A stretch of 63,343 bases of DNA, the filler included, from Stramenopiles sp. TOSAG23-6 (taxonomy: Eukaryota): assembly GCA_900128565.1 (NCBI GenBank). It is 8 parts of 8 records of this genome, joined end to end, with 100 filler letters (N's around TTAATTAATTAA, not from the genome) between each part and the next. Parts side by side here need not be neighbours in the genome. Positions count along the whole stretch, not along the records: positions 1 to 10,025 come from LT636336.1; positions 10,126 to 20,145 come from LT636337.1; positions 20,246 to 30,244 come from LT636338.1; positions 30,345 to 40,309 come from LT636340.1; positions 40,410 to 50,371 come from LT636341.1; positions 50,472 to 60,403 come from LT636342.1; positions 60,504 to 61,873 come from LT639156.1; positions 61,974 to 63,343 come from LT639157.1. One strand, written 5' to 3'. A program made the position numbers and the translations under genes. The notes under the pieces are model-generated. The model did not search any database. It worked only from the letters and a program-made list of their open reading frames with translations, and was not told the origin of the DNA. Positions 1,461 through 62,544 of the stretch are shown here, piece by piece (position 1 is the stretch's first letter; the number at the start of each line of letters is the position of its first letter).

Positions 1461-3933
1461 ATGGGAGAACCATCTATGTCAACGAAAGATTTACTGAATT
1501 GCATTGAAGTTGCACGCAAAACGGGAAATTTTACTGACGAGTCGAGTTTTAGTTTGTCATGCAAAAATAGGTTAGCTCTTGTTTACAGCGTTTTATCTCT
1601 ACCTGATATCCCTGGAATTGATATTTCTTCAAATAAAAATACGAATCCTAATTCGTGGGATAATGAGATAACTAATAATCCTGAGCAGGCGTTGGAAAAT
1701 GTTGCTATATTGTTAGTTTCGCTAGAAAAGTTGATTGCTGACAACACATCCATACTTGATGAATTTGCGTTAGATGTTTTGCAATATGTGTTTCAGTATA
1801 TGACTGATGATGATAAAGTATTTGGCCATTTTTCTACACAGCTAAATAAATCTGTACAACAAGCCGCTTCCAATTTTATAGAGACTGTGTGTAGAACGCG
1901 AAATCCTCGCGAAGTTTGGATGCCTATAAAAGTGATTGCAACTTCAAGAATGGTGAACCTTGGTCGTGATTTTCAGCTACTCCGTTCTATCCCTATACTT
2001 TTAGATAGAATTGTTTCAGAACGAAAGGGAAGATCACGTCGTCTACTGTTCTCAGACATTACCAATATATCATGTAAAATAGTAGAAAAGATGATGTTAT
2101 CTCATAGAGACGACTTTCTAATTCATGAGAGTTTACTTACAAAGCATTTTTTGAATGAGGTTGTTGGTAAGCTTCCTCTTGCAAAGTATCTTAAGAGTGG
2201 AGAGCATCATCAGAGTGGAGATCATTATCACACTATTTTCGAATTATGTATTCGTGGAATGTCAACAATTATCGAACCATTTACAGCATATTTATATCGT
2301 ACGAGAATTGCACTTCAATGCGTAGGTGTTTACCGAAAAGACACAACTATAGAAAAAGAATATGAGTTTGCATTAGATTGTTCAGCTCATCGTCTTTTTA
2401 TATTACGTCATGTGAATTCGATAGCAGTTTTGTCCAAGGAAAAGAGTTCACCTGATCTTCCAATACAAAATTTTGTACAACAACTACTACGAGTAGATGG
2501 TTCAGCACTTTATATTTTAGAGTTTATTAGAAAACAGAATATGTGTAATACTACAGTATCTAGTGAAGTATGTTTTTATCATTTATGTTTTTTTCAAATG
2601 TTCAATTTTGATTTTTTTTTTTCTTTGAAAATTCTGTACTTAACGATTTTCAATTTTGACATATTTTAAATAGTACTGGCCTTAAATGGCGCAGCTCTAT
2701 TATCTTGGTGGTTATTAGGACGAAATCCTAGAATTCTTAATCAAAATCAATCATTACTATCATATATACCATCAGTATTATCGCCAAGTATGTACGTTTT
2801 CATCATTCATTTTATTTTTTTTTTGGTACGAAATTTTGTACCTAACAAAAAACTATCAATTTTTTTTTAATATTTTCCGAAAATATATGTTTGTCCGTAT
2901 TGGCATTGAGAATTGTTCACGATTATTAGATACTAGTCAAAGTAAAGTTAACATTGAAAGAGGCCTGGAATTAATGTCAAGGATATTTGAAGCATATTTA
3001 CCACCTCCGATATATATAAAATGTAAACAGGAAAGCTCTCATAATAATGATAATATCGTTTGTGACGCTTATCAACTTTTAATATGTACATTTTCAATTT
3101 CAAAATTTTAATTTTTTTTTCCAACGAAATTTTGTACCTAACGTTTTTTATGTACCAAAAAAAAAATATTTTTTCACAATATATATACCTGTTTCAAAAT
3201 GTTATTAAATATTAGTACAATGAACGAAAAGGAGAAAAATCGTGAAAAATCTTTACATTTAATTCCTTTATTATTATCTATTTTACCACCGTGTTTACGA
3301 TTTAATACTATATTTAGATTGCTAAAGGGAAATTATGCTGCTTTTGATAATTATTCATTTGGTAGAAAACTTGGTACAAAACAAAAAGATTCAGATAATT
3401 ATTGTCTTTCATCAGCAAATACTGCGATAGTTTTCGATATAATTCGTGCACAGGTTGTTGAATCTATTTCTTATATACGAAAATCTGTACCAAAACCAAA
3501 GCAAAATGAAGTATACAACAATTTCTATACTTCTCCTTTTGTAACAGGTAAAGTCTTTTGTTTTGTGAAATGGTTGTTAGAAAAGTTATCTCAGAGAGAA
3601 CTTGTAGAATGGTCTATGGCTTATGCAAGCTGTTTGAATTTACTACGTTTTCTAATTCTTGTAGTTCCAGATGCTCTGAAAAAAATAAATAGTAAGCCTA
3701 ATCGTATGGCGTCTCATAATAATATCGATGATAGTCCAAAGAATAATGTGGTAAATATTTGTGATTTAATTAATCTTATGAGTAATGCTGTTGATGATAA
3801 GACAAATGAACTTTGTAAATTAAGTAATAATATTGATTCTACAGAATATGCGACAACAAGATTGAAAGAATCAAAAAGTCGTATTTTTATTGTGCAGGAA
3901 GTGTTGAGTAGAGTTAGAGAACTTTTAGTATAA
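1461..3933 (+). CDS. Multi-exon helical protein, possibly glomulin/ALF4-like; introns ~2568-2672 (boundary ambiguous), 2792-2888, 3086-3184
   Basis: Four exons join in frame after intron removal; C-terminal AYASCLNLLRFLIL resembles the glomulin/ALF4 C-terminal motif. Confidence 0.55.
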
Positions 3934-4076
3934 AATAATATATTTTTTAAGAATTTTCCAATTTGGATTTGTTTTTCGTACAAAATTTTGTACTAACAAA
4001 AAAGAAAAAAAACAAATTTTGATAGTATAAAATAAGAAATATATACATTTATTCATATTTACATGATTTTAGAAAT

Positions 4077-6628
4077 CTAGGGCAAAGTCTCGATAAAAAG
4101 TTTCATCGTTTCACTTTTCAATATTTCAAGTATTGATAATGGGGAATACATAGTAAAAATATTTCGGAGAACATTACCTGAATTTTCTACACCTCCGCGT
4201 CTCAAAGCTTTTATGAAAGACATTTTCCGCCGGAAACGCATTTTTTTCAATTCATGTATTGTGAAAAGATATTTGTTTTACGAAAAAAAACAAATTAGGT
4301 ACAAAATTTTCTATGAAAAAAAAAATGAAATTCATGATGAAGACTTACATTCACAAAATTATCAACACTTTCTTCTGGTATTGAATCAATCATAGTGAAT
4401 TCTGAAGCTTCTTTATTATTGGACATGGCGACTAAAGCAACAACTTTATCATTGCGTAAATCTTCTGATGCGTATTTAAGAGTCATTCCATTTATATATA
4501 CTGCCTGTAAGAAAAAATCACGATTCTTTTTTAATTGTTCCGAAATGTTCTCAAATAATCCATACCCGAATAATTCATTTCCTAGAGATGGTGGTTTATT
4601 TAATGAGAGTGCATAAATTGTGAAAAAATACTTTTTTTGTTAAAATAAAATTCGTTAGGTATGGAATTGGGTACAAAAAATAAATAAATTTAAAATTCAA
4701 GAATTCAAGAAAACAAAACGCACATCAAGTAAAAATTGACCGTTTGACTTTAAATTCACTGGAATATTTTCGACAATATATTGTTCTTCACCCCACGCAT
4801 TGTTTAAAGCACAAAGTGTTATTTCACTCTGTTCTCTCAATGATTTCGAAGCGTCATTGTATATTGTGTTGTCAGGATGATATAACGCTGCCAAAAATAA
4901 ATCTCTCTCACCCTGTAATCTCTTTGAAGCTACTTTGAAGAATAGATCACCATCATCACCTTGAATCCTAGCCATCATTATATGGTAGTCATCTACATAT
5001 GGCAGACGTTTTACTGTATCCATGCAAAAAGAATCTGGATTCTCTTCCCAAAATTCGATTTCGAAATTTCCAAGTATGGCAGCATCAAAAACAAAACCAT
5101 AATTTTGTTTTAAAGAATCTGAAGCAAAAGCAATATTAAGAGCATTTACTTGTACAGCTAACAAAACAATCTCGGGATCATTAATAAACTTTGGTTCGTC
5201 GAAAAACATAATATCTCCATTTTGAATAGCCACTAAGTAATCATCTCGCATATTTTGCATTTCACTTGAGTACCTTATTTTCGGAAATTGAGGATAGTCA
5301 TTCACCCAATGTTGTTTTCTCTTTGCTACAATATCATTAGCAATTGCCCTGGATTTAATTTTTGCAATATCAACTTTATCAACTCCAGAAATGACACGAG
5401 GAATATCAAGAAGCCTTGGTGATGCCCATTCTAAAGCAGCGATATTTCCCCTTTTAGCAGCCATAACAATATTGAATGTATTTCGTAACCTTAGTGAAGC
5501 ATATTGAAGTGCATTACCATTACTTTTATCAACCGCAGTCATAACAATAAAAGATGTATCTCGTAAATTCACTGAAGCATATTCGAGTGCATTACCATTA
5601 CTTTCCACCGCAGCCTTAACAATATCATTGCTATCTTGTAAACCAAATGAAGCATATTCGAGTGCAACACCCACACTTTTCACCGCAGCCATAACAATAT
5701 CGTCATTATTTTTCAATAAATCTGAAGCATATTGGAGTACAAAGCCATACTTTTGTACAATATTTAATACAAAATTGTAGTTTCCAAAGTTTGTTACTGA
5801 GGTGTGTTGTAGAATGTCCACCAAAGTTTGTCTTTTATTGCTGCCGTCTACAGCTAACTGTGTAACCCAGAGCTCATGTCGAAGCCTTGATGATAAGAAT
5901 TGAAAAGATGCTGGATTCAATAACACAGCTGTAACAGCTATAATTTCATTATCACGCTCTTCTACTGATAAATTTTGAAAATATTCTTTCAAACAGAGAT
6001 AGGATTGCTCAGACACCATTAGAGGAGTTTGTACAGAGAGTAAGGTAGTTATGTGATGATATATTGTATCAATCAACTCAAAATCATAAGTATATTCGGG
6101 TATTATTTCTCCTGAAATTGTATGCCATTCATTTCTTAACTGTTGTATAACAGGATTAAATATATTTGAAGTTTTTAAAATCTCATGCAATTTAAGTTGA
6201 AAAATTCTTTGAGCAAATGAATGAATGAAAGGGATTTGGCGAAGTCTCTCCGAAACGTGCTGTATCATCATCGGGTTTTTATGAAGTACTCTTATTGCAA
6301 CTGCCATGTCGTCTTGAAAGAACGGTGATACTGTAGCGAATTTACTCGGGGTTTCCATGATTACACGTACCACTTTATCCCGGGAGACCAACACATTAGA
6401 GATGTCTGTGCTGGGAGCGGCGGTGGCTGCTACTCCAGCAACGGACGCATTTATCGGACTTGCATGCGCCACCGAGGACTGTAGAGTTGTTGTTGCGTCG
6501 TTTTGCGAGGCGTTGTCTGTTCTTTGTCTTTTTGAGTCGCGCATAACGTCGTCGGACCCCCGTCGTTCCATTCCACTTGCAATGGTTAAAAGAAACGTAA
6601 TGTATAGAAACAATGTATAATATTTCAT
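4077..6628 (-). CDS. Secreted DUF4116-repeat protein; introns 4613-4723 and 4254-4348
   Basis: Signal peptide from MKYYTL; many 'AV..NG.ALEYAS..L' repeats; the repeat pattern continues across the first GT-AT intron and the frame stays open across the second to TAG at 4077. Confidence 0.8.
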
Positions 6629-6879
6629 GCTGTACCTGCTTTTGATGATTCCTTTCAGCTGAAGTGGTGTGGCTGGGGTAGAAGTATCTGTACAACAATT
6701 ATTTCCGAATTTCCTTAGTAAGTATGCGTATGTACGTCGGTAGTATGCGCCAGTTAGCAATAGAGCCAGCGCGCAAAACCGGTAACGATCCCCGATCGAA
6801 ATCTTGACAGAAGTGGCCACATCAAGTTTCAGTGCGCATCTAAAGACTTTCGTATAATTCAGTAACTCAATCAAGTACT

Positions 6880-9323: not shown

Positions 9324-9958
9324 TCATGCTTGTTGACTAAAATAAGAATCTTTAGATTTCCCAGACCTACCTCCTGAAGTTTTTGAACTTGTTTTGTTTG
9401 ATGTATCACTTTGTCCAACTTCTTGCGCATCAGACTTATTTGCATGTTTCTTTTTCCCGTGTTTGTTCTCAGTTTTTTCATTTTTTTTCGTATTTTTTTC
9501 TTCTCCATTTGACAAATTTAAATTATTGATTCCATTGGGCATACACCAACCAAGCATAGCAATGGTATGTAATAATATATGAAGCGCTGTAATAGTAGCA
9601 CCCCAAATAAGAACACTTGCTGCAGTATACTTTTCTTTCTGAGAATCTACACTTTGTCCATTATCTGATTCTATGATCCAAGTACCTATATTGTGAAAAA
9701 ATATTTTTTCATTTTTTTGTTAGGTACAAAATTTCGTACGAAAAATAAATTTGAAATTGAAAAAAAGTTGAACATTAACATACCAAATTCTCTGCTGGAT
9801 AAAGCAAAAGCACAATATATACTGTAACCAAAAAAGAAAAAATCTACAAAAAAAAGAAGGATCCATGTTGTACGATTTGCAAATTTTTCTGGATGATAGA
9901 AATGCAAATAAGTAAAAAATATTAAGTAGACTTGTACAAGAACTGAACAAATCAGTGT
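9324..9958 (-). CDS. 3' part of a multi-pass membrane protein; GT-AG intron 9686-9783
   Basis: Two exons join in frame (REF-G-TWII); hydrophobic segments; 5' end lost at contig edge. Confidence 0.6.
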
Positions 9959-10025
9959 ATGCATTGTGAAAAAATATTTTTTAAAATTTTTTTGTAATTT
10001 GTTTTGTTAGGTACAAAATTTCGTA

Positions 10026-10125
10026 NNNNNNNNNNNNNNNNNNNNNNNNNNNNNNNNNNNNNNNNNNNNTTAATTAATTAANNNNNNNNNNNNNNNNNNN
10101 NNNNNNNNNNNNNNNNNNNNNNNNN
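10026..10125. other. Artificial contig linker N-TTAATTAATTAA-N (also near 20190, 30289, 40354, 50416, 60448, 61918)
   Basis: Identical 12-mer with stops in all six frames, flanked by N runs. Confidence 0.97.
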
Positions 10126-10175
10126 CGAAATTTTGTACCTAACAAATTTCGAATTTAATTTTTTTTACAATACAT

Positions 10176-15098: not shown

Positions 15099-15376
15099 GC
15101 ACGGCCCTAACCCTAATTTTGGACGGTTCGGACCGCGGCTTTAAAGTGCTGTAATTCCTAAAGTTCGTGCAGTTTTGACTACTACCGCATATGGGAATGA
15201 TCAATGCCAGGCAATGAAGACATGTATCTATATGGCATGTTAAAACTGCACGGCTTACATGGTCAAATAATGCATTGTAGCCGCGCCTGAAATAGGGGGG
15301 GTTTTCGTACGAAATTTTGTACCTAACGATTTTTTTTTTTTTTCCAACCGTCCACTTTTTGGCGTTTTGGCCGTGC
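15099..15376. mobile_element. Putative MITE-like or fold-back element carrying the intron motif
   Basis: Three nested inverted-repeat pairs; internal exact copy of the intron branch motif; no clear TSD. Confidence 0.4.
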
Positions 15377-19970: not shown

Positions 19971-20294
19971 TTTACTTACAGGTACGTAAATCGTGAATCG
20001 AAATTTTCAATTTTTTGATGATTTCTTTCAAGAATAATTAATGGTCATAAAACTCATGGCTTACCTAGGCCTAGGGTTAGGGTTTGCGTTCGAAAAAAAA
20101 CCATTAATAATAATACAAATATTTTTTTTGTTTTCAAATTTTTGTNNNNNNNNNNNNNNNNNNNNNNNNNNNNNNNNNNNNNNNNNNNNTTAATTAATTA
20201 ANNNNNNNNNNNNNNNNNNNNNNNNNNNNNNNNNNNNNNNNNNNNACCTAACAAATTTTAGTTTTTTTTTTTTAAATACTTTTTCACAATACAT

Positions 20295-21032: not shown

Positions 21033-22594
21033 TTAAATATCTGGCCTTTGGCGATTACAAGCAGCACAGCATAAGAATCTGCCTTTATTTACAAGAGTGC
21101 ATAATGAGCAGACATTGTGAAAAAATATGTCAAATTTTAAATCCGTTAACTACGAAACCTTTACATTAAGTACAAAATTTTCTAGTAAAAAAAATGAAAT
21201 TCATAATGAAAACAAACATGTCCACTCTCCCTCTTTACACGAATCATTTGAGTTATCCAATTCATATTTACTTTGATTATGTTGATTNNNNNNNNNNNNN
21301 NNNNNNNNNNNNNNNNNNNNNNNNNNNNNNNNNTTGATTATTTTTTTCATCACAATTTTTTATTTCTGTATTTTCTACAACTTTTGAATTATTGTCCACT
21401 GGAAAATTATTACAACTGTCTTCGGATATGTCAATCAAAATGTTTTTGTTTGATGTATTATCATTGAAAGGCTCGCATGGATTTTCTATTTCATCAGTTG
21501 AAATATGCATTTTGGAAAAATATTTCAATAAAAAAACACGTTAGGTACAAAATTTCGTACGAAAAAAAAACAAATTGAAAAAAAATAAAACATACATCAA
21601 TCACAGACCTAGCAATCTTTTTAGGTCGCGGATTTCTAGGACAAACTTTTGGAAAATCAGTAAAAAAATGAGAAATTTTACGTTTCCTAGAAACTTTAGA
21701 TTTTTTAGAGATATTATTGTAATAGTTTTTACTACATTGAGGATGTTCTCCGTTCAAAACTTTATGCAATTTTACTGCTTCTGCTTCATCATCATTACTT
21801 GCTGAGATACTCGAAGCTTTACTTCCCTGGGATAATTCAAATGGGCATTTATTTTTATTGATTAGGGAGTTTTCAATGCGAATGAGCATAGAAGAATTAC
21901 TTGAATTTAGCATAGAAGAATTACTTGAATTTAGATTCAATATGCTTGAATTATTTGTTTGGATTATTCTATTGGAATTTTGGACCTCAAACGAAGCATT
22001 CAAATCCATTGCAAATTTTTTATCTCTCTTTTCTTGCTCTCTATTTCTTTCTACATCTTTCGATTGTAACTTTGCAGCAAAATCAGCGTCTTCTTTTTCT
22101 CGAAGTACTTTTTGTATAAATAACTGGGCTTCTTCATCCTGTTCTATCAGTGCCTTGGATTTTTCTTCTTCTCTGAGTCGATCTTCATCGTGTAACTTTT
22201 GCATAGAAGACAAACCTGATAGTAATTCACCATTTGTGTTACTAGATACTGGAACTTTGACAGATTCCTCACCAAAAATAATTAAATCTGAATCAAACTC
22301 ATACTCTTCATCTGTTGGATCAATGATATGCGTTTCAAAAAATTTAGTCATTTCGACTTTTTGTCTTTCGTTAATGAAAGTTCCATTATTTTTGGCCCTA
22401 CGAATCCAACGCATTGTTTTACGACATAGTGGACATACTACCTTTTGACCCTCAGTTTTTTCATAAGTGTTATAACATCCTTCGCACATAGAAACAGAAA
22501 TGGCTCTACAACATTGAAGATTTATCGGTGGATATGCCCACTCAAAACAAGTTTGACACTTCCAACTCTTGGGTAGATTTTTCATAGGGTCCAT
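21033..22594 (-). CDS. RING-finger protein with C-terminal RanBP2-type zinc finger; introns 21505-21595, 21110-21217
   Basis: N-terminal CQTC...CEGC...CPLCR; the spliced C-terminus gives WTCSLCTLVNKGRFLCCAAC. Confidence 0.8.
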
Positions 22595-30038: not shown

Positions 30039-30397
30039 TCCCAAAGGGTAGGGTTTAAATTTCTGATATTTCTTATTTTTCGGGCATTTTTATTGCGTAG
30101 GGTAAATAATCAATTGAAGAGTTGAAGTGGGAGAATTTTTTATTGTGTATAGAGTAAACAATTTTTTTTGTACGAAATTTTGTACCTAACAAATTTTAAA
30201 AAAAATAATTCTAGAGTGTAAGTGGGAAAAATATATGAGAGATTNNNNNNNNNNNNNNNNNNNNNNNNNNNNNNNNNNNNNNNNNNNNTTAATTAATTAA
30301 NNNNNNNNNNNNNNNNNNNNNNNNNNNNNNNNNNNNNNNNNNNNGTACAAAATTTCGTACGAAAAAAAAATCAAATTTGAAAAAAAATAAAACATAC

Positions 30398-40947: not shown

Positions 40948-40984
40948 CGGATTAACCACTAACAAAGCCAACCTGTGAAAGTAT

Positions 40985-43900: not shown

Positions 43901-46223
43901 AAAAGTAAACAGGCTAATTTATCATGTCACTGTTAATGGTTATCATAACCAAATAAAAGAACGAGAAACAAAAAATGATGACATGTTGAAAAAGTATGGT
44001 GACTCTGAAGAACGTAGAAAACGTGCAACAAGTTATATTGAAAAAATTAAAGAAAAATTGGAACAATTTATTCGACAATTCCACAAGGATTATCCAAATC
44101 AAGTGCCAAAATATTCAAAAGCAAAAAGGAAGCGTTTGCAGCGCGAATATAGAGAATATATATCTGGTGTCATGTCTCAACTTGAAAAGAAAAAGCAGCA
44201 AGTATTATCTCCTGACCATGACTTTGAGAGCTTACGAAGTCATGCAGTCAATACCAAAATTGCCCAATATAAAGAAGAATTTCATGAGAGGTATGTATGT
44301 TTTATTTGTTTTCAAATTCGAATTTGTTTTCGTACGAAATTTTGTACCTAACGAGTTTTTGTTTTGAAATATTTTTCCAAAATACATCCTGGTGTTATTG
44401 TAGATGATTTATTTTCTGAAGTTACGTTGGTATTTGCATATACAAATATTATGAAGAATTTAGATAATCAAGCACAAGCAGTTATGTCGGGATATCAGAA
44501 AGAATTTCGCGCTTCAGCTAATCCGGCGAATGTTCAGTACGAATACTCATTGAAACTTCAAGAAGTCGGTGAACTGCGAAAGAAGAAAGAGAAAGAATTT
44601 CTTAAATTATTTCCACAACTCAGAGACAAGATTCAATTCCAACAACAACAAGGTCCCGTTACTTATGAACCGTTGCCTCTACAAGTGAATACAAGGCTGA
44701 CAAGCAATGGGAAAAAGAATGAAACACTTGATACAAATAGAAATGAATCACTTGCTAAAAATGGTGAAAGTATTCCTGAGCAAATAACAAGTGTAATAAA
44801 TCCCCAGGATGATGCTATTATTGAGACACAAGAGCCTGTACCAATAAGATTATCAATGGATTTTATATCGGAACAAACGGCGCGATCTCCTGTGATAGAA
44901 TCTAATTCAAGTCAAGCAGATAAATCTCCTGTGATAGAATCTAATTCAAGTGAAGCAGATAAATCTCCTGTGATAGAATCTAATTCAAGTGAAGCAGATA
45001 AATCAATAGCTTTCTTTCAACTTGACCTGATGGGAGATCAGTTACTACAGTATGATGATTTATCTGATGAAGACAAATCCGAAAGATACAAGGTATATTA
45101 TTTTAGACAGACGCGCATATTACAGGAAATAGAAATGGAGTTTGCAAAGATTCCATCACACTACAGAGGTTATGAAAAATGTGATTATGTCCGTCCATTA
45201 TATCGTACTGAAAACGAAGCAAGAGAGAAGCTATTCGATTATCATAAACGATTTGTGAAGAAATATTCTGGTTTGAGCGATTACTATCTTGAACAGCATG
45301 TAATGAATGGATATGAAATAAAACGATTGAAATTTTATACTAGTATGTGTGACTTAGGTAGACCAATGGGCGTAGAACAATTAGAATCAAAGGAAAAGAT
45401 AAAAAGGAGATGGAAAAAGATGGAAGAGGATTTGGATAAAAAACATCCTGGAATTATTGATAGATACAACAAAGCATTTCGAAAGAAGAACAATATACTT
45501 GTCTATCACATTAAAATCCATGGTTATCATAATAAGATGAAGGAACGTGATGTCAAGTATAAAAGAAGAGTCAAATTATTTGGTGATTCTGAAAGTCGAA
45601 GAGGACGTGTGAGAGATTTTAAAATAGGAGTACGAAAAAAGTTGAAAAACTTTATTAAAAAGTTCCATGAAAGTTNTCCNGGCGCGGTACCAAAATATTC
45701 AGAAATGGAAACAAAAACTTTACAGAGACAATATAGAGAACATATATCTAATATTATGTCTGAAGTAGAACGATATAAACATCTGGTTTCATCAGAAGTT
45801 GAATTTGAGAAATTTAAAGAATATACAATGAATATAAGACTAGCAAAATACAAACAAAGTTTTCACCAGGAATATCCTGGTATTATCGTCGATGAACCAT
45901 TTACTGATGCTACATTGTTTCACATATACACGCAAATGATGAAGTCTTTGGATGCCCAAGCACAAGAAGNAGTGTTGAAATTCCGCAAAGATTNTCANAC
46001 TACNGANGATCCAGAGAAACTGCAGCAAGAGTACNATTCAAAACTTGAGTTGGTTAGTAAAAGGCGAATTGTANTAGAGTTTGATTTCCTTGATTTCTTT
46101 CCGCAAATGGAAGGCAAACTTCCTATACAAGGACCAAAACCTTGGGAATTTGGAAATCATGTGCGAATGCAAATATATATGGATGGTGTTGAGGTTCAAG
46201 TAGACCCTACTAACCCTCAATAG
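40985..46223 (+). CDS. Large protein with three internal ~260-aa helical repeats; introns 42126-42219, 42486-42586, 42763-42859, 43580-43733, 44295-44387; 5' region disrupted
   Basis: Recurring LVYHVxIHGY, VPKY, FHxEYPG, FPQL motifs; frameshift ~41178 and in-frame TAG 41491-41493. Confidence 0.7.
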
Positions 46224-46348: not shown

Positions 46349-47488
46349 TTATTCACGCTTTCTAATCTGCATTTTGACACCACCAGCACCAAGACCACTT
46401 AAACCCATCATCGCACGAAAATTTGACATTGTCTTGGCTTCTTTTTCTTGAGCAGCCCTTGCTCGTTTCAATTTACTTTTATTTTGATTCTCTTTTTTTC
46501 TATCAATTCTTTTCTTCATCCTTTGAAATTGAGATCCTTCATTTGTGCCACCACCACCCATCGATACATTTTCAGATACAGACATTCCATCACGAAGAAA
46601 TTCTTTTTCTCTAGCACTACCATGTATTGTAAAAAAATATTTTTTTTTGTAAAATTTGTTAGGTACGAAATTTCGTACGAAAAAAAAATCGAAATTGAAA
46701 AAAAATTGAAAAAAAAAACATACATGAATTCTGTTTCCTTGTGATTGACGTTTTGCCATTTTCGAAGCATGACTTCCAGGGTCTGCTCTCGCGTTGTGAA
46801 TAATTTCCGATCGATGTCTTTTCTTTTTATCCTTTATATTTTTTCGGTTTTCTTGTTTTTCTTTATAGGAGATATTTTTACGCTGTGTAATATTTAAAGT
46901 ACCTGAATTTCTTCCCTCATTATTCGTGAATGTGTCGACCGCATCTTTTGTAGACTGAAGTTGAGCTCGATCTTTATCACCTAAAGTTTTGACAAAATTC
47001 CATTTATGTTTTGTTCTTTTAGTTGTTTCGAGGATTGCTTGGGAGATACCATCATAATACATAGTATCTAAGTCATCAGAATTCCATTTTGAACAAAATT
47101 TGGAGAATAAATGACGCGCATCATCAGTTAAAAGATCATCGAGATATTTCCTTTTCTCAAGATGCAACCACACGCGAAACTCTTTTGCATGTGTAAAGTA
47201 GTCTTCTCCACTTAAAACCCTTCGGCCACCGACGTCAATTCCGCGAGCTTGTAACAAAAGTTTGGCTTTCTTCAATTTACTATCGTGACTACTGCTAGAA
47301 CGGTGCTTCTTTGCTTTTTTGATGCGTTTTTTCTCTCTACGTTCAGTACTATCAGATTGGCTACTATTGTCATCAGTATCACTACGTTTGCTTTTGCGAT
47401 GTCGCTTTTTACTCTTTTTATGAGACTTCTTTTCCTTACTACTCTTTTTTTCCTTTTTTGCTTTTTTCTCTTTCTTGTTACGACTCAT
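46349..47488 (-). CDS. SCI1 (style cell-cycle inhibitor 1)-like nuclear protein; intron 46622-46723
   Basis: EDYF...EFRVWL.LEK..Y...L...AR.LFSKF..KWN...YY.GI motif; K-rich N-terminus. Confidence 0.7.
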   Translation of the reverse strand: MSRNKKEKKAKKEKKSSKEKKSHKKSKKRHRKSKRSDTDDNSSQSDSTERREKKRIKKAKKHRSSSSHDSKLKKAKLLLQARGIDVGGRRVLSGEDYFTHAKEFRVWLHLEKRKYLDDLLTDDARHLFSKFCSKWNSDDLDTMYYDGISQAILETTKRTKHKWNFVKTLGDKDRAQLQSTKDAVDTFTNNEGRNSGTLNITQRKNISYKEKQENRKNIKDKKKRHRSEIIHNARADPGSHASKMAKRQSQGNRIHVCFFFQFFFNFDFFFVRNFVPNKFYKKKYFFTIHGSAREKEFLRDGMSVSENVSMGGGGTNEGSQFQRMKKRIDRKKENQNKSKLKRARAAQEKEAKTMSNFRAMMGLSGLGAGGVKMQIRKRE

Positions 47489-48639: not shown

Positions 48640-49554
48640 CTAAGGAAATTTCGAATGTACATCCAAACGTTGAATATCGTTTTCTCTGGCTTGAAGGATA
48701 TTTTGTCGAGTCTTCATTCCTGATTGTGTCAGTGTAATGAGATGTAATAATCCAGGTATTTTGTCTTGTTTTGCCTGACATTCTTTCGTCTTTAGGGTTA
48801 GGGTGTTGAATTTTTTCATTCTGTTTTTTGTTTTTTTCCAAAGATCATTTGCCGTCTGTATNGTTTCCTGTTTAGCTGCTTGTATTATCTTTTTTTTCTC
48901 TTTATGATGAATAAAAAGTCCATTATTAGATTTCTTCTTTGCTAAGTCTGACAATTCTGCTGCTTTCTTTTCTTCTATAACTGATTGACGGAACTCATAT
49001 ATTGTGAAAAAAAAAAGTTTGGTTAAAAAAAATCGTTAGGTACAAAATTACGTAGAAAAAGAAAAACATTCATGATGAAGACATACGTCTTGAATAAACT
49101 GAAGTTGTTGTTTGCAAGATTTTATAGCCATTTTTGTCATTTGTAGTTTTTTTCTATGCGACAAAAGCTCTTTGTTGTATTGTTTGTAAACAAACTGAGC
49201 ATTATTAAAATCTTCTTGATAATGATTTCGTCGTACTATAAATTTTGAAGCTTCTCCTTTACCGTGAACACTTTCCTCCTCCTCCTTATCTTTGCAATTA
49301 CTGTTATCATCACACTTTCTATAATTCCAGCATTTGCAGTCCATTTCATTCAAAGGACCAATATCCCCTCCATATACACATTGAGAATTTTTCCCTGGAG
49401 AAGAACACCAACCACAAAATTCTGTACTTGTACACTTTGAACAATTATCGGTCTGTGGACAGAGAGAATTTGATCTCAAGAATACCTTTTCAGATTTCTG
49501 AAGGCTTATTTGAATAACTGTAATAATAATTAAAAAATATACTCTAGAGCTCAT
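48640..49554 (-). CDS. Secreted PSI-domain plus coiled-coil protein; intron 48997-49086
   Basis: Signal peptide; CSKC...CGWC PSI motif; in-frame join to ORF 48640-48954. Confidence 0.7.
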
Positions 49555-50605: not shown

Positions 50606-51851
50606 ATGATTTCCTTTACACGCCGTTAAATACATTGGTAAACTATTTCTACACTGAAGTTTTTCAGAGGATTGAACATTTGCATTAGGGTTAGGGTTAT
50701 TATGTTCAGATTCAGATAAAGTTTTGTCTAATTTTGTTGCGTTTTCATTTTCAACTTGGACAGTACTAGGGTTGGGGTTAACCGCTTGGTTCCATAGTGC
50801 AATTCTATGTCGTTTTTGTTCCAATTCTTTTTTTTTTTTTTTTTCTTCTTCATTTTTTATTAAATTTAGACGTTTTTTTGCATCTTCTTCCGCTTTTTTT
50901 TTTTCTTTTCGTGTCATTGGACGACCAGACCCTAACCCTAGGTTCGTTGAATGCTTTTTTTTGTTATTATTTGTTCTATGTTTCAGTTGTTGTTGTTGTT
51001 GATTCTGTCCAAATTGACTTAATTCATGTATTTTGGAAAAATATTTCAAAAAAATCTTAAAAAAATTTGTTAGGTACGAAATTTCGTACGAAAAAAAAAT
51101 TTTGTAAAAAAAAATAAAACATACATTATCACTCAATTGAAATAATGACTGTTTAAATGTAGTATCATTTTCAATACAATGTTGGATTTTTTGCATTTGC
51201 TGTATAAGATGTTTGACAACTTTTCGAGTCGCAATTTTTGACAATGATGATTCAAAATTCTTTTTTCCCTTGGAATATTCAATATGAATTTTGGAAAAAT
51301 ATTTCAAAAAAAAAATCTAAAAAAATATGTTAGGTACAAAATTTCGTACGAAAACCNAAAAAAAAAAANCGATTTTTTTNTAAAAAAAAAAATATTTCAA
51401 AAAAAAAATCTAAAAAAATATCTTATGTACAAGTTTTCGTATGAAAACCAAAAAAAAAAATAAAACATACATAAATATCTTGAAGAGTTTCGACGTCTAC
51501 ACATTTACAAATAATTTGCATTTGATATATATCAATTGTAAGAAGCTCACGAGAATTCTTCGGTATACAATTTTGTAACCCTGCAATTTCAGCAGGAGTT
51601 GCTTTTGTATTTAGTGCTTTTTCCCAAAAACGTTCAACATAGACTTTAAACAGTGACATTCGTCTTTTTTTTTGTTCCATTAATTTTTGCTTTTCAGATC
51701 TTTGAGTTGTTGTAGACTTTTTTGAGTGTTTTGAGTGTTTCGAATGTTTCGAATGTTTAGACTGTTTCGATTTTTTAGTTGTCGTTGGCTCTTGTGAATG
51801 ATCTTTGCTCGCTTTCTTATCAAATTTATCGTTTCTTTGCATAAAAGACAT
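50606..51851 (-). CDS. Hypothetical protein, 5' part; introns 51284-51470, 51026-51124, next intron from 50605
   Basis: Exons join in frame at phase-0 GT-AT introns. Confidence 0.6.
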
Positions 51852-52412: not shown

Positions 52413-54332
52413 ATGAAGCACTTATTTACAGGAGTATTCTTTTATTCAAGTATACTGTTTACTTTGAGTACTGTGTATGCAGTTGATAAACAGCAGATTA
52501 CTTGTAGCGCAACTCAACCATGCCCCGAACATCAACGTTGCTACCGTCCAGGATCGACTCAGTCGCTTTGTATTGAAAACAATATGCTAGGTGCATCTGC
52601 TCCACCCACTCTTGGTGCTTCAGTACAGGATGAAACAGTTAAGAAAATATTATCATCCATTTTAGGTGATTTTTTTGATGGTTCAAAGGGTCTGTCTGCA
52701 GAGCAAAAGGAATTACTCTTTTCACAATTTGAAAAGTTGTCAACAAAACAAAGAGAGCAATTCGCCTCTTTTGCTGAAAAATTAGGCGAAGGAAGTGGTA
52801 ATAGGAACCCAGGTGATCCTGTCACATCTGAAGAAAAAGAGAAGTTCACTAAAGCTGGATTTATTGCGCTACAAAATGCATGTATGTTTTCATCTCAATG
52901 TTTTGTCTACATTTTTTTATTTTTTTTGGTTTTTTGGTTTTCATACGAAATTTTGTACCTAACAATTTTTTTTTTTTTTTTTTTTTTTAAAATTTTTTTC
53001 AAAATGTTTTTATACTCCATTCATGAACCATCTTGGACTATCGGAAAAAGATAAAGAGAAACTTTCTTTCATCAATTCTGATCAAATGTCTGCAATTTTA
53101 AACAATCTTCGAGATGCTTTGAACAATGATGGTCAACAATTCGATCCCAAAGATTTGCACGACAAAACGAAACTTACTGCAAAACAACTCAACGGCCTTG
53201 TCAATGTTTTTGGATCATTGAGGGCTGATTGTTCATCTAACGAAGCAAAACAATGCCAAGACGAATTTATGTATTTTTTTTTTTTTTTTTGAATTTATTT
53301 TTTCGTACGAAATTTTGTACCTAACAATTTTTTTTTTTTTTTTTAAAATTATTTTTCCAAAAAACATGAATGGAAAGACTCAGTGTATTTGGACAAAATT
53401 TCAAAAACGAATGAAAAAATGCGTCAAATATGGGAAATGTATCTTTGAAGAATGTCAAAATATCACACAATGTGACTCACCTGATGCTCTGGAGTGTACG
53501 AAAAAATTCGAAAACGAATCTTGTCCAATTTCAAATGTAGTTTTTTTTTTTAATTTTTTTTTTTAAATTTTTTTTCATAGGAAATTTTGTACCTAACAAA
53601 AAAAATTAAAAATTTTTTTTTTGAAATATTTTTCCAAAATATATTTTGATTCTTTTCTTCATCATAATAAGAAATGTATTGTGTATGGCTCATGTCTATT
53701 CGCACGTTGTATCGATATTTCAAGCATTGGTGATGATGATGATACAAAAAGTGATAATAAAAGTTATTGGGAAAAAGAAGAACAACAATCAAATGGGAAA
53801 TCTTTGGGTGTGTTTTCAACAATTCTTGTGGTGATTTCTGTACTGTTTGTGATGGGTATGTTTTACGTTTTTTAAAAAAAAAATTTTTAATTTTTTTTAC
53901 ATTTTTTTTTACATTTTTTTAAAATTTTTTTTTAAAATTTTTTTTTGAATTTTTAAAAAAATTGTAAATATTTTTCAATGATTCCAATGATTTCAATCAT
54001 TGGTGTACCAGATCCAAAGATAAAACTAATACTCTATAGTATATACACATACTACATTCACTCTGTTACTTTTGTATTGAAATTTCGTACCTAACAAAAA
54101 CATCAGTTTACTTTTGTATTGAAATTTCGTACCTAACAAAAACATCAGTTTAAAAATAAAAATAAAAATATTCTTATACAAGAACAGGTGTAATTGGATA
54201 TTTAGGATTTCGTGTTTGTGTGAAGAAAAATAATGTTTCAAATGACAACTCTGTAATGTCAAATGGATCGAGATCGGACAATCGACGAACGTTTCGTACT
54301 TTTTTCTTAATGAATTTTTCACTTTTTTTTTC

Positions 54333-54384
<52 letters not shown>

Positions 54385-54503
54385 CATAGGAAATTTCATA
54401 CCTAACAAAAAAAAATGAAATATTTTTTCTCAATATAGACACAGGACCAGGAGATTATATGCCACCTACGAATCAAAATGAAGGAACATATACGGAACTA
54501 TGA
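52413..54503 (+). CDS. Cys-rich type I membrane protein; introns 52882-53020, 53271-53367, 53537-53644 (GT-AT), 53856-54187, 54296-54438 (GT-AG)
   Basis: Signal peptide; six exons join in frame; repeated KKC..YG.C.F..C unit; TM helix; C-terminal YTEL. Confidence 0.75.
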
Positions 54504-57841: not shown

Positions 57842-60381
57842 CTACAATTTTTCTAGCAAATTACAATGTTTCAACTTCGAAGCTAAAAAGGAAGCAGTAA
57901 CACCGTTATTATTCTTAATATTTGATTCAGCGCCAGCTTCAAGTAATAAATGAATTGTTTCTATTCCTTCCTTATAATTACTTTTATACCATTTTTCTTT
58001 ACCTAAAGCCAAATGATTACTTTTATACCATTTTTCTGTACCTAAAGCCAAATGTAGCGCAGAATTACCTGCAGAATCTGTTGCATCAATCAAATCTCGG
58101 GATTTCATGTTTTGTGAAAAGGTTTTTTTTTTTTCAATTTAAANNNNNNNNNNNNNNNNNNNNNNNNNNNNNNNNNNNNNNNNNNNNNNNNNNNNNNNNN
58201 NNNNNNAAAAAAAGAAATACAAATCTAAAATACAAAATTTCATACAAAATTTCATAGTTAAGAACAAAAAAATATAATACTGGAGACGTACTTGTCCTTT
58301 AGAATGACTTTCAAAGCATCGGTATGATGCAACGATGCAGAAATCATCATTGGGGACCTTTTTTTATTATTACCAATTGTAAGATCTGCACCTGCAAGGG
58401 TAGGAAAATATTTCAAAAAATGTTTTTTTTTTATATTAGGTACAAAATTTACTATAAAAAAAAACATAAAGACACAAATGATGAAAACGTACCTGCATCA
58501 AGTAGTAATTTGATGATCANNNNNNNNNNNNNNNNNNNNNNNNNNNNNNNNNNNNNNNNNNNNNNNNNNNNNNNNNNNNNNNNNNNNNNNNNNNNTGGTT
58601 TGAGTTTTTTTTATGTCAAATTGTTTTTTTTTTCATAGTACATTTTGTACCTAATATGAAAAAAACAAGAAAAACAAGAAAATTAAAACAATATAAATAT
58701 GTACACAAAACGTTTTACAACGTAAAAATTAAATGATGAAAAATATATAATAAAATGAATGATGAAACTAACCTGTTTGTCTCTTGAATTGAGATGTATT
58801 CCATGACGTATGAGTATGTTTAAACATTTTGTACGGTTTAGTTGAGCAGCAATCATAGCTGCGGAAGTTGCTGTCCAATTTATATGGTTNNNNNNNNNNN
58901 NNNNNNNNNNNNNNNNNNNNNNNNNNNNNNNNNNNNNNNNNNNNNNNNNNNNNNNNNNNNNNNNNNNNNNNNNNNNNNNTTCATTTTGATGGTCATTTTG
59001 ATGTTCATTTCCCATTTCTATTTTGTTTTTGATATTTTTAGAGGTATCTGTTGCTAACGTTTTGTTCAAAAATCGTTTGCACAACATTTGAGTAATTCTA
59101 GGGAAATTATTTTGTACTGATATATATAATGGGGAACAACCGTGTATTTTTTCACTCGCGATATCTATGGATGCGCCTCTAGATAAAAGCAATTGGACGC
59201 ATTGCTCATGTCCATTTGTGCACGCTTTATACAGTGGCGTTTCATTGAACTTATCACAAATATCAATATTTATATTTGGTTCTGGTATGAAATTTTGTAT
59301 GAAAAAAAAAAAAAAAGTTGAAATGAAAAATGATACCTTACGGCATTATCGTACTCGCTCCTTTAGCGGCAAGAACATGAAGTGATGTCATTTGTGTAGA
59401 ATCTTCTCTTGCATTCACATCGACTTTATAATTAAGTAAAAGCTGAACGACACGATAATAATCTGGTTTTGTATTTGTTGTAGATTTTGATGTTTTCATA
59501 GAGAGAGCTGTTGTTGAAGTAATGGCGATTGGATTTATGTTTTTTTCAATTTGACTTTGATCACTCAAGTGATAATTATTCTTTGAATCATTGTGTATAG
59601 AGTCGACTAATGTATCGCTGCAGTATCCTTCACATGCGGCATATAGTGGAGTTTGACCATTGTATGACGTTATATCTGCCTTGGCGCGTGTCTTTAACAT
59701 TCGTGTAACGTGTAACAGGCGTTGAATTTCAGGATTAGCTTGTAGTTCATATTTTGGGTGTTTCAAACACCAGCCATTTTCAAATAAATCTCTCTCAACG
59801 TCATTCTTCACAGTTTTAGCTTCCTGATCCGTCAGTTGCGCCAGTGAACTATTCAAATTTTTCAAAATCAATTCAACACCGATATAACACCCGGAAGCTG
59901 AAGCTAGCCACAGTGGTGTTTGACCACTTGCATTTCTACTCTCTACATTGACGTATACTCCTAACAAAGAGCGAATAATATGTGCATTTCCTTTATATGC
60001 AGCAGCATGCAAACAAGACCAACCCACATTATTCAATCTATGTGGATCAGCACCTTCTCCAATGAGAAACTGTACAGCTTCGTCAGCATTATTACGACAA
60101 GCAATATATAAAGCTGTGCTACCATCTTTTGGTCTATAATCATCTATATCTACGTTTCTGTACAGTAACTCCTGAAGTATATCAACACAATTCGCACCCG
60201 CTGCATCCATCAATGGTGTATTCCCCAACTTATCACATACTTGATATGAAGCACCAGCATTTAATAAAAGACAGAAAGCGGTATAATTAGCTGTAGAGCA
60301 TGAGTCCAATAAAGCACTCCGGAAAAATGATGGTTCGGTATAATTGATAAAATGTCTTTTCATTTCTTCTCTACGACTCAT
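57842..60381 (-). CDS. Multi-exon ankyrin-repeat protein (gapped); introns include 58392-58492 (GT-AG) and 58107-58291 (GT-AT, spans a gap)
   Basis: Many GxTPL/ALH ankyrin motifs over several ORFs; junction near 59270-59340 unresolved. Confidence 0.8.
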
Positions 60382-61873: not shown

Positions 61874-61973
61874 NNNNNNNNNNNNNNNNNNNNNNNNNNN
61901 NNNNNNNNNNNNNNNNNTTAATTAATTAANNNNNNNNNNNNNNNNNNNNNNNNNNNNNNNNNNNNNNNNNNNN

Positions 61974-62000
61974 AAAAAAAAATAGGAAAAACCAATTGTG

Positions 62001-62033
<33 letters not shown>

Positions 62034-62497
62034 CAATTTCGATTTCGATTTTTTTTTTTATAAAAATGTTATACCTAACGAAAAACAACTTGAAATATTT
62101 TTCCAAATGCATGATGACATCGTTGATGATTTTGATACGAAAACGGCTAATACTATTAAGTCTATCTATCATCAAAAGAAACATATTCTTGCACAATCTG
62201 AAATTTTTCTTTCACCGGAGGATAGAAATTTTATTCCTTTTAGTTCAATGATTGGACATTTTGAAAAAAATTTTGAAAAAAAAATTGAAAAAAATATTGA
62301 AAAAAATTTTGAAAAAAAATTTCAATTGGATGATTTGACAAATGCACAAGATATATCAAATACATGCAAACGTTTACATATACCTCCACCAACCTCTCCT
62401 ACCTCTGAAGCTCGACAATTGTCAGTTTGTTTAAATAATTCTTCCCATCAGAATGTATGTTTTTCATACCCTAACACTCAATAACCTTAATTATTTC

Positions 62498-62544
<47 letters not shown>

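What the first reader, a model, noticed from the sequence alone, without database searches (positions are those of the whole stretch)
2615..62080. Shared palindromic motif fused to the branch point in nearly all introns (introner-like family)
Seen: TTTTCGTACGAAATTTTGTACCTAAC or close variants occur more than 30 times, oriented with the host gene, usually ~30-45 nt upstream of the acceptor, in both GT-AT and GT-AG introns. It holds two overlapping palindromes (TTTCGTACGAAA; GTACGAAATTT(C/T)GTAC), followed by a TACCTAAC branch site rather than TACTAAC. A second block, AAATATTTTTCC/TCAC, precedes the acceptor. Established: introner elements create families of similar introns in algae, fungi and other protists. 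Inference: common mobile origin and/or an extended recognition element or hairpin that compensates for loss of AG, with partly distance-based acceptor choice.
Basis: partly seen in the sequence, partly recalled or inferred. Interest (0 to 1): 0.8.

Follow-up and report, generated by a model that had tools for sequence, protein, structure and literature searches.

The report
Repeated GT–AT intron family, marine protist
Nearly every intron in this marine protist sequence is a copy of one ~100-base repeated unit that carries its own splice signals and seems to end in AT instead of the almost universal AG, which points to intron spread by a mobile element and to an altered rule for choosing the end of an intron.

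Summary
The 26-mer occurs 20 times with ≤3 mismatches (0 expected). Its core GTACCTAAC occurs 25 times (0.21 expected).

The motif is the middle block of a whole-intron repeat, median 100 nt, made of four parts: exon-AT|GTATGTTTT, a T-run, TTTTCGTACGAAATTTYGTACCTAAC, and AAATATTTTT(CC/TC)A(A/C)AATAYAT|.

I curated 24 complete introns, all in the sense orientation of their gene. 23 start with GT. 19 end in AT, 4 in AG and 1 in GT.

GT…AT boundaries are supported without RNA. Removing 5, 3 and 3 introns gives single ORFs of 1396, about 400 and 692 codons. The junctions are colinear with intron-less paralogous units and with four homologues.

The last two exon bases are AT in 17 of 24 introns (background 10.7%). 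They match the intron's last bases locus by locus, which resembles a target-site duplication.

Introns are present or absent among ancient paralogous repeats, form subfamilies, break scaffolds, and recur in hundreds of marine RNA contigs.

The proposed hairpins show no covariation. No snRNA gene was available.

Best reading: an introner-like family with a constrained, extended branch site and an AT acceptor. No spliced RNA junction was seen.

The parts
2568..2673 (+). Diverged family intron (GTATGT...TGTACTTAAC...AAATAG); exact borders unresolved
   Evidence: nhmmer hit. GT...AG does not keep the frame; only a 1-nt-shifted pair does (and inspection).
2792..2888 (+). Intron AT|GTACGT...ATATAT|
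   Evidence: Frame kept at offset 0; full-length profile hit.
3086..3184 (+). Intron AT|GTACAT...CACAATATAT|
   Evidence: Upstream ORF 122 codons, downstream 248 codons, in frame.
4254..4348 (-). Intron AT|GTAAGT...CACAATACAT| in the DUF4116 gene
4613..4723 (-). Intron AT|GTGCGT...CACAATTTAT| in the DUF4116 gene
   Evidence: Upstream ORF 718 codons, downstream 105 codons, in frame.
9686..9783 (-). Intron TG|GTATGT...CACAATATAG|; the one frame-validated AG-ending member
9959..10025 (-). 3' two-thirds of a family copy, cut by a scaffold end (ends CACAATGCAT)
10126..10175 (+). 3' part of a family copy at a scaffold start (ends TACAATACAT)
20246..20294 (+). 3' part of a family copy at a scaffold start (ends CACAATACAT)
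21505..21595 (-). Intron AT|GTATGT...CCAAAATGCAT|
   Evidence: Upstream ORF 336 codons, in frame. 88% identical to the intron at 44295 in an unrelated gene.
27052..27202 (-). Acyltransferase intron 3, AT|GTACGT...GTTACAT|
   Evidence: Splits the ATG codon of the invariant M in CMGW(T/V)WYLG. Colinear with 4 homologues.
27307..27464 (-). Acyltransferase intron 2, AT|GTAGGT...CACAATATAT| (holds a second GTATGT inside)
   Evidence: Junction GPFH|VRYQ is colinear with 4 homologues.
27850..27948 (-). Acyltransferase intron 1, GT|GTATGT...AAAATACGT|: the exon end and the intron end are both GT
   Evidence: In-frame 33-codon insert that is absent from homologue P0121. Colinear with the homologues.
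30345..30397 (-). 5' half of a family copy at a scaffold end (AT|GTATGTTTT...); same sequence at 40257-40309 (+) through the inverted duplication
42126..42219 (+). Intron b of gene 41494-46223, TT|ATATGT...ATACAT|; found only in repeat unit 1
   Evidence: units 2 and 3 are intron-less at this site.
42486..42586 (+). Intron c, AT|GTATGT...ATACAT|; found only in unit 1
   Evidence: VPR|YTK aligns with VPKYSK in the intron-less units.
42763..42859 (+). Intron d in unit 1
43580..43733 (+). Intron a, AT|GTACGT...ATCCAT|; only in unit 2; the branch module is duplicated in tandem
44295..44387 (+). Intron d in unit 2, at the same position as 42763
   Evidence: 82 of 93 aligned bases identical to 42763-42859, while the flanking exons are 42-52% identical.
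45861..45896 (+). Intron-less ('empty') site d in repeat unit 3: ...GAATAT^CCTGGT...
46622..46723 (-). Intron AT|GTATGT...TACAATACAT| (102 nt, open in frame)
48997..49086 (-). Intron AC|GTATGTCTTCATCATG...CACAATATAT|
   Evidence: The exon end GAC differs from GAT by a synonymous change (inspection).
51026..51124 (-). Intron AT|GTATGT...ATACAT|
51284..51470 (-). Intron AT|GTATGT...AATTCAT| with a duplicated branch module
52882..53020 (+). Intron 1 of gene 52389-53880, AT|GTATGT...CTCCAT|
   Evidence: Removing all three introns gives one ORF with a signal peptide and a C-terminal membrane span.
53271..53367 (+). Intron 2 of that gene, AT|GTATTT...AAACAT|
53537..53644 (+). Intron 3 of that gene, AT|GTAGTT...ATATAT|
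54296..54438 (+). Probable intron TC|GTACTT...CTCAATATAG| (weak ORF support)
58392..58492 (-). Probable intron AG|GTACGT...TTGCAG| beside an N gap
62031..62112 (+). 3' part of a copy (ends CCAAATGCAT); duplicated in inverted orientation near 63210-63286
15302..15338 (+). Branch-module copy with no 5' splice site or 3' block (not an evident intron)
30162..30198 (+). Branch-module copy near a scaffold end with no evident 5' splice site
54064..54141 (+). Two tandem 42-nt units, each holding TTGAAATTTCGTACCTAAC, lying between genes

Best explanation
The motif is the branch-site module of an introner-like intron family.

The unit. The repeat is the whole intron, usually 90-110 nt, and it carries all of its own splicing signals. 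These are a yeast-like 5' site (GTATGTTTT), a T-run, the module TTTTCGTACGAAATTTYGTACCTAAC, a second T- or A-run, and a 3' block ending ...AATAYAT.

Spread (inferred). Copies spread into coding sequence, mostly after an AT. This left either a 2-bp target-site duplication or an exact intron-sized insertion.

Splicing. A U2-type spliceosome then removes GT...AT precisely. The 3' cut therefore follows AT rather than AG.

After insertion. Selection keeps the 5' site, the 3' half of the module (AAATTTYGTACCTAAC, an extended branch site) and the 3' block. The 5' palindromic arm and the spacers decay.

Shown: family similarity, sense orientation, the borders at the level of frame and homology, the exon-AT association, presence/absence among paralogous units, and the lack of hairpin covariation.

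Inferred: mobility and its mechanism, the branch nucleotide, and which spliceosome acts.
For: Borders
- Gene 41494-46223: removing 5 introns at |[G/A]TAYGT...AT| gives one ORF of 1396 codons. In-frame stop counts are 1, 83 and 159 in the three frames.
- Gene 52389-53880: removing 3 introns gives one ORF with a signal peptide and a membrane span.
- Acyltransferase gene: removing 3 introns gives one ORF of 692 codons. Its three junctions align without indels to P0121, P0123 and P0129 (P0124 needs small indels at two of them), and one junction rebuilds an invariant Met codon.
- In the first blind frame test, 16 of 20 candidates kept the frame exactly at the proposed cut.

One family
- Among 17 single-module introns the mean pairwise identity is 68% and the best is 88%, between unrelated genes on different scaffolds.
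- Shared non-signal blocks recur: a 5' TTCATCATGAAT variant, and the CAC-type 3' block goes with an A-run in 7 of 11 copies against 2 of 12 for the CC-type (p=0.036).

Gain-like pattern
- The three ancient repeat units of one gene are 18-28% identical in protein around site d.
- They hold introns at four sites. Three sites are occupied in one unit only, and unit 3 has no intron.
- The empty sites are exact.

Borders carry a direct repeat
- The exon ends in AT in 17 of 24 introns, against 10.7% before GT in long ORFs (p=5e-12).
- AT-ending introns have an AT exon end in 17 of 19 cases; non-AT-ending introns in 0 of 5 (Fisher p=0.0005, or p=0.029 if only the frame-validated ones are used).
- The last exon base matches the last intron base in 21 of 24 introns, against 16.2 on permutation (p=0.0015). 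This includes a GT/GT locus.

High copy number
- At least 4 scaffold ends stop inside a copy.
- 857, 941 and 982 contigs from three marine RNA runs pile up on the intron blocks only.
- One unrelated metagenome contig, L006, carries a full copy.

Selection on part of the module
- In the 30-row alignment of the branch module the 3' arm plus the branch core (GTACCTAAC) is almost fully conserved: T23, A24, C25, T27, A28 and A29 never vary, and G22 and C26 are at 90% or more.
- The 5' arm varies.
Against: - No spliced RNA junction was seen. The RNA contigs did not cover the exons.
- The two introns at the same site d in units 1 and 2 are 88% identical, while their flanking exons are near saturation (third-position identity 19/50 and 23/50). 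This needs either parallel insertion at one site or very strong constraint on an old intron. The second option favours the rival.
- The direct repeat is only 1-2 nt and is mostly the same AT everywhere. The published criteria I read call such a pattern ambiguous. Its locus-specific part rests on few loci.
- The terminal inverted repeat is weak: GTAT...ATAC, or 6 nt if the AT is included.
- No clear full-length copy lies outside a gene or in antisense orientation, and no autonomous element was seen.
- Conservation is blocky rather than uniform.
- Only 63 kb plus one contig were examined.
Confidence: 0.55

Rival explanations
1. Old, immobile introns held to one long consensus by selection. In this view a streamlined spliceosome in this lineage needs extended 5', branch and 3' signals, as in budding yeasts or Trichomonas/Giardia but longer, so all introns converge on one sequence. 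Absences among paralogous units are losses.
For: - Conservation is concentrated in three blocks, with variable spacers between them.
- Introns at the same site in ancient paralogous units are 88% identical although the exons are near saturation.
- That pair is no closer to each other than introns of unrelated genes are.
- The invariant part of the module adjoins the branch core.
Against: - Recurring non-signal blocks and linked variants define subfamilies.
- The palindromic 5' arm has no visible function, yet it is the consensus.
- Explaining the paralogue pattern by loss needs 7 losses against 4-5 gains (my count).
- There is a locus-specific border match, including GT/GT.
- Branch modules are duplicated in tandem inside two introns.
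Confidence: 0.25
2. A transformed and expanded minor (U12-like) splicing system. The long invariant 5' site and branch site and the tolerance of non-AG ends would be minor-spliceosome traits, with snRNAs that have co-evolved as reported for Physarum.
For: - The 5' site is conserved over 9 nt with TTT at +7 to +9, and one copy starts with A.
- The branch site is nearly invariant.
- In Physarum, GT-AT made up 17% of 1,014 non-canonical U12-type introns, and the U12 snRNA had changed together with the branch motif (passages read).
Against: - Positions +5 and +6 are GT, not CC or CT.
- The branch A lies 31-59 nt from the 3' end, not about 10-12 as in Physarum.
- T-rich tracts are present.
- GTATGT is the classic major-type 5' site (recalled).
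- No minor snRNA could be looked for.
Confidence: 0.08
3. The palindromes fold into an RNA hairpin that presents the branch site or sets the acceptor by distance, making up for the missing AG.
For: A 6-bp hairpin (GUACGA/UUGUAC) is predicted just 5' of CUAAC in 7 of the 12 folded introns. Two introns reach z = -2.8 and -2.7.
Against: - There are 0 pairs with a change on both sides.
- 78% of cells are paired, against 77.1% in shuffles (105 of 500 shuffles are as high).
- The closing pair is broken in 15 of 28 copies.
- The second palindrome does no better.
- The mean folding z-score is -0.9 and 3 of 12 introns are above 0.
- The branch-to-end distance varies from 31 to 59 nt.
Confidence: 0.07
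4. Artefact of amplification or assembly, such as chimeric joins or a contaminant repeat.
For: - The window is a chain of scaffolds.
- One scaffold is a perfect 4217-nt inverted duplication.
- Three or four module copies have no intron context (15302, 30162, 54064-54141).
Against: - Copies sit exactly where reading frames break, and removing them restores the frames.
- The same family occurs in an independent metagenome contig and in contigs of RNA runs from three studies.
Confidence: 0.02

Closest known systems
Introner elements of marine algae and other protists (Micromonas, Aureococcus, Florenciella, Chrysochromulina and others), as described in the 2022 preprint 10.1101/2022.06.06.494994 (passages read)
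   Same: - Many introns in unrelated genes are similar from end to end.
- Copies sit in genes in the sense orientation.
- The element supplies splice sites.
- A short direct repeat at the borders may be a target-site duplication, with one splice site lying in it.
- The organism is marine and planktonic.
   Different: - The ends are GT...AT, not GY...AG.
- The repeat is only 1-2 nt and is almost always AT. That paper's own rule rates such a pattern as ambiguous.
- The inverted termini are weak.
- The family seems to account for nearly all introns seen here, not a subset.
- A later survey accepted only AG/AC 3' sites as familiar (passage read), so a family like this could be missed or discarded.
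Non-canonical introner elements of the parasitic dinoflagellate Amoebophrya (PMC7789003, passages read)
   Same: - Marine protist with a majority of non-GT-AG introns.
- Repeated introns with direct repeats across the exon/intron borders.
- Complementary 5' and 3' intron ends. Here exon-AT+GTAT can pair with ATAC+AT.
   Different: - Amoebophrya has no consensus dinucleotides, direct repeats of 3-5 nt and inverted repeats of 8-20 nt.
- Here the 5' site, branch site and AT end are near-invariant.
- Here the repeat is 2 nt and the complementarity 4-6 nt.
Budding-yeast type U2 introns (GTATGT ... TACTAAC ... YAG; recalled, no call)
   Same: - GTATGT 5' site.
- Near-invariant branch sequence with a CTAAC core.
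- Short introns in a compact genome.
   Different: - There is an extra C in the branch box (TACCTAAC).
- Conserved flanks extend about 16 nt upstream of the branch core and about 20 nt at the 3' end.
- The acceptor is YAT in 19 of 24 introns.
Physarum polycephalum expanded U12-type introns (10.1101/2020.10.12.336362, passages read)
   Same: - Long invariant 5' and branch motifs.
- GT-AT and AT-AT borders occur.
- Large numbers of such introns.
- Precedent for snRNA and motif changing together.
   Different: - The motifs differ at the diagnostic positions.
- The branch-to-acceptor distance is 3-4 times longer here.
- In Physarum GT-AT is a small minority; here it is the majority.

Membership tests
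Introner elements | Introns of unrelated genes share sequence from end to end | tested here: met
   17 single-module introns have a mean identity of 68%, up to 88% between genes on different scaffolds. Full-length profile hits were found.
Introner elements | Evidence of recent gain: presence/absence at exact sites between homologous sequences | tested here: inconclusive
   Four sites were compared among three paralogous units. Three are occupied in one unit only and the empty sites are exact. The units are ancient, one site is shared, and no orthologue or population comparison was possible.
Introner elements | Transposon marks: target-site duplication and/or terminal inverted repeats | tested here: inconclusive
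   Border match at exon -1: 21 of 24 against 16.2 expected (p=0.0015). At -2: 21 against 19.2 (p=0.045). The inverted termini are only GTAT/ATAC.
Introner elements | Spliced at familiar sites (GY-AG, AT-AC) | tested here: not met
   19 of 24 end in AT. An AT-AC reading is possible for only 8 of the 24 (my count from the listing).
U12-type (minor) introns | 5' site [G/A]TATCCTT, or TATCTTT in Physarum | tested here: not met
   The consensus is GTATGTTTT, with G at +5 in 20 of 24.
U12-type (minor) introns | Branch motif TTCCTTRAC close to the 3' end | tested here: not met
   The motif is GTACCTAAC, 31-59 nt from the end.
U12-type (minor) introns | Minor snRNAs and proteins present in the genome | not testable with these tools
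   No genome is held. No Rfam match was found in the window.
Yeast-like U2-type introns | GTATGT 5' site and a fixed branch box with a CTAAC core | tested here: met
Yeast-like U2-type introns | YAG acceptor | tested here: not met
   4 of 24 end in AG, and only one of these is frame-validated.
Amoebophrya-type non-canonical introners | 8-20-nt inverted repeats joining the intron ends, 3-5-nt direct repeats, no consensus splice dinucleotides | tested here: not met
   Complementarity is 4-6 nt and the repeat is 2 nt. The consensus is strong: GT in 23 of 24 and AT in 19 of 24.
Structured RNA element (hairpin at the branch site) | Base pairs kept through compensatory change | tested here: not met

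The most novel reading that the evidence does not exclude
In this lineage the acceptor of most introns is no longer AG. The spliceosome accepts, or is guided to, a 3' end that repeats the last two bases of the upstream exon: AT at most loci, GT at 27948/27850, AG at 58492/58392. The duplication made when the element inserts would then itself be the acceptor signal. One introner family and the splicing machinery would have co-evolved until almost the whole intron set follows the new rule.
Probability: 0.2. Interest if true: 0.9.

Novelty: new variant of a known kind. Interest (0 to 1): 0.74.

Why it matters
1. A genome in which most introns end in AT would be a rare natural exception to the AG rule. 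It offers a test of how the second splicing step reads the last intron base.

2. It would be an introner family that standard pipelines cannot see. The public coding sequence that matches the intron-less GDI gene here lacks three stretches that relatives keep. This suggests that gene models for this organism were forced onto GT-AG. Gene catalogues and intron surveys of such uncultured marine protists may be systematically wrong.

3. Exact filled and empty sites inside one gene give a direct handle on how new introns arise.

Tried and rejected
Direct RNA evidence
- One read-laying run on 40410-45675 with four marine RNA runs. 857, 941, 982 and 13 contigs were laid, almost all on the intron blocks. 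Exon bins had depth 0-5. No joint matched any predicted border, so splicing is neither shown nor contradicted.

Searches that found nothing useful
- Two protein searches meant to find spliced relatives.
- The metagenome scan gave 9 loci, of which 8 are chance hits without the family context.
- The viral collection gave 0 hits.
- The whole genome is not held.
- Rfam gave nothing at the gathering or E<=1 threshold.
- GTAGGTAC, a guess at an snRNA complement, is absent from the window.

Readings I rejected
- AT-AC, with both cuts moved 2 nt upstream. It gives the same mRNA at only 8 of 24 loci and inconsistent ends elsewhere.
- Cuts shifted by ±3 nt. The paralogue and homologue alignments need no indel at the proposed cut.
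- The hairpin.
- A long terminal inverted repeat.

Early errors, corrected
- 5' sites first set at 3082, 27408 and 27461 were moved to 3086 and 27464.
- A 3' end first set at 27118 was moved to 27052.

Rows left out of the 24
- Truncated copies at scaffold ends.
- Inverted duplicates.
- Diverged candidates at 21113-21219, about 59240-59345 and 48566-48660, and the module at 3954-3998.

Literature
- Searches for GT-AT or GU-AU introns and for MAST introns listed no paper on GT-AT-majority introns or on the introns of this lineage.
- Supplements were closed. The family lists in introner survey supplements could not be checked.

Full report
**What the window is.** It is eukaryotic, about 33% G+C. 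Pfam finds genes for a Rab GDI, an FKBP, a SET protein, a DUF4116 repeat protein and an acyltransferase-3 protein. It is not one molecule. Six pieces of about 10 kb and two short ones are joined by N44-TTAATTAATTAA-N44 linkers. One piece (30345-40309) is a perfect inverted duplication. The runs that hold the DNA are from seawater. The GDI protein is 100% identical to a protein from a public run. It is identical, apart from three missing stretches, to a EukProt coding sequence whose label begins GSMAST32. Two relatives are about 80% identical. From that label alone I take the organism to be a marine heterotrophic stramenopile of the MAST-3 kind. I did not pursue its source.

The 26-mer occurs 20 times with up to 3 mismatches, and no shuffle gave any. 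GTACCTAAC occurs 25 times, against 0.21 expected. A profile of 17 introns finds about 40 sense-strand modules. The motif is only the middle of a larger repeat, which is the whole intron. The consensus is:
- exon-AT|GTATGTTTT;
- a T-run, often with CAATTTCGAATTT;
- TTTTCGTACGAAATTTYGTACCTAAC;
- a T-run or an A-run;
- AAATATTTTT(CC/TC)A(A/C)AATAYAT|exon.

Length is 90-187 nt, median 100. The branch A lies 31-59 nt from the end, median 40.5.

**Where the introns begin and end.** I had no usable RNA junctions, so I relied on reading frames and homology.
- In a blind test, 16 of 20 candidates kept the frame exactly at |GTAYGT...A(T/G)|. The four failures were later traced to wrongly set ends or remain unresolved.
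- Gene 41494-46223: removing five introns gives a single ORF of 1396 codons. The other two frames of the joined sequence hold 83 and 159 stops.
- That protein has three paralogous repeat units. At all four intron sites the junction aligns to intron-less units without any indel. This excludes cuts shifted by ±3 nt.
- Gene 52389-53880: removing three introns gives one ORF with a signal peptide and a C-terminal membrane span.
- Acyltransferase gene (28646-26163, minus strand): removing three introns gives one ORF of 692 codons. A 37%-identical homologue lacks exactly the 33 codons of the in-frame first intron. All three junctions align without indels to three of the four homologues (P0124 needs small indels at two of them). 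The third junction rebuilds the ATG of an invariant methionine.

In the 24 curated introns, 23 start with GT and one with ATATGT. 19 end in AT, four in AG (one of these frame-validated) and one in GT. Moving both cuts 2 nt upstream to read AT-AC gives the same mRNA at only 8 loci, so it cannot be the general rule.

**A direct repeat at the borders.**
- The last two exon bases are AT in 17 of 24 introns. AT precedes GT in 10.7% of cases in long ORFs (243 of 2274; p=5e-12).
- The association is locus-specific. 17 of 19 AT-ending introns follow an AT exon end, against 0 of 5 others. Fisher p=0.0005, or p=0.029 with frame-validated introns only.
- Base by base, the exon's last base equals the intron's last base in 21 of 24 introns, against 16.2 on permutation (p=0.0015). 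For the base before it the figures are 21 against 19.2 (p=0.045). No other position stands out after allowing for 20 tests.
- One typical family member has GT at both places (27948/27850).
- One exception (exon AC at 49086) differs from AT by a synonymous change.

This is what a 2-bp target-site duplication looks like. But AT is self-complementary, so exon-AT+GTAT can also pair with ATAC+AT. An exact intron-sized insertion after AT is possible too. By the criteria of the introner survey I read, a repeat that is the same at nearly all loci is ambiguous.

**Descent or constraint?**

*For common descent and gain.*
- Introns of unrelated genes are up to 88% identical.
- Blocks with no splicing role recur. 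Examples are GTAWGTYTTCATCAT... at the 5' end of at least six copies, and the CAC-type 3' block, which goes with an A-run (7 of 11 against 2 of 12, p=0.036).
- Two introns contain tandem duplications of the branch module.
- In the three-unit gene, three of four intron sites are occupied in one unit only, and unit 3 has no intron.

*For constraint.*
- Conservation is blocky.
- The introns at the shared site d are 82/93 identical, although the flanking exons are 63/150 and 78/150 identical. Third positions are near saturation.
- That pair is no closer to each other than introns of unrelated genes are.

I conclude that both act. The family is mobile, or was once mobile, and its signal blocks are kept by selection. 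Inside the motif the split is visible. The T-run, AAATTT and GTACCTAAC are 90-100% conserved, while the 5' arm (CGTACG) varies.

**Structure.** Neither palindrome behaves as a conserved hairpin.
- For the 16-nt palindrome there is no pair with changes on both sides. 78.0% of cells are paired, against 77.1% in shuffles. The closing pair is broken in 15 of 28 distinct copies.
- The 12-nt palindrome does no better.
- Twelve whole introns fold with z from -2.78 to +1.54, mean -0.9.

The palindromes look like heritage of the ancestral unit rather than working RNA structure.

**Copy number beyond the window.**
- At least four scaffold ends stop inside a copy.
- Contigs of three marine RNA runs from two studies (857, 941 and 982 records) map almost only to the intron blocks. 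A fourth run, from a third study, gave 13. Family copies therefore number at least in the hundreds in those communities. Whether they are pre-mRNA, excised introns or DNA cannot be told.
- One unrelated 3.2-kb metagenome contig carries a complete copy with AT|GTATGT...ACAT|.

**Comparison with what is known.**
- The family works like introners: repeated introns that bring their own splice sites.
- It shares border repeats and complementary ends with the non-canonical introners of Amoebophrya. Unlike them it has strong consensus signals.
- Its 5' site and branch core are of the budding-yeast type (recalled).
- GT-AT borders are documented as a minority among the U12-type introns of Physarum. 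The diagnostic U12 positions and spacing are not met here.
- My searches listed no paper, and the passages I read contain no description, of a genome whose introns mostly end in AT or of the introns of this lineage. Supplements were closed.

**Limits.**
- No spliced read, no snRNA, no orthologous locus and no population data were available.
- Only 63 kb was examined.
- Several AG-ending members are not frame-validated.
- The mechanism of spread and the identity of the spliceosome are inferences.

Noticed in passing
window 10026-10125, 20146-20245, 30245-30344, 40310-40409, 50372-50471, 60404-60503, 61874-61973: N44-TTAATTAATTAA-N44 linkers, which carry stops in all six frames, join scaffolds of about 10,025 down to 9,932 nt plus two of about 1.4 kb. 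The window is a chain of separate scaffolds, apparently sorted by size, and not one locus.
   Followed up: partly
window 30345-40309: The whole scaffold is a palindrome: 4217-nt arms that are 100% complementary around 1531 nt. This looks like an amplification or assembly chimera. 61975-62544 and 62773-63343 are likewise inverted copies of each other.
   Followed up: partly
window 1297, 15105, 15386, 16411, 16429, 20072, 24795, 48793, 50686, 50930: The telomere-like 11-mer CCCTAACCCTA occurs 10 times (0.01 expected). The copies are scattered: some lie just upstream of genes (for example upstream of the GDI start) and some lie inside ORFs. It may be a promoter-type element.
   Followed up: no
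window 18333-20006 (-): The public coding sequence that matches this intron-less GDI gene lacks three stretches of 13, 13 and 11 residues that two 80%-identical relatives keep. These are probably false GT-AG introns in the public gene model.
   Followed up: partly
window 41494-46223 (+): A 1396-residue protein with no Pfam match is built of three diverged repeat units of about 380 residues. Each contains motifs such as HPG(L/I), YHV.(V/I)(N/H)GY and PG(V/I)(V/I)VD(E/D).
   Followed up: no
window 27850-27948, 46622-46723, 51026-51124 (-): Three family introns are 99, 102 and 99 nt long and free of in-frame stops. ORF finders therefore read straight through them and add 33-34 F/L/I-rich residues.
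   Followed up: partly
window 3954-3998 (+): A module with the classic GTACTAAC box in place of GTACCTAAC lies just after the stop of ORF 3142-3930. It may be a 3'-UTR intron or a relic copy.
   Followed up: no
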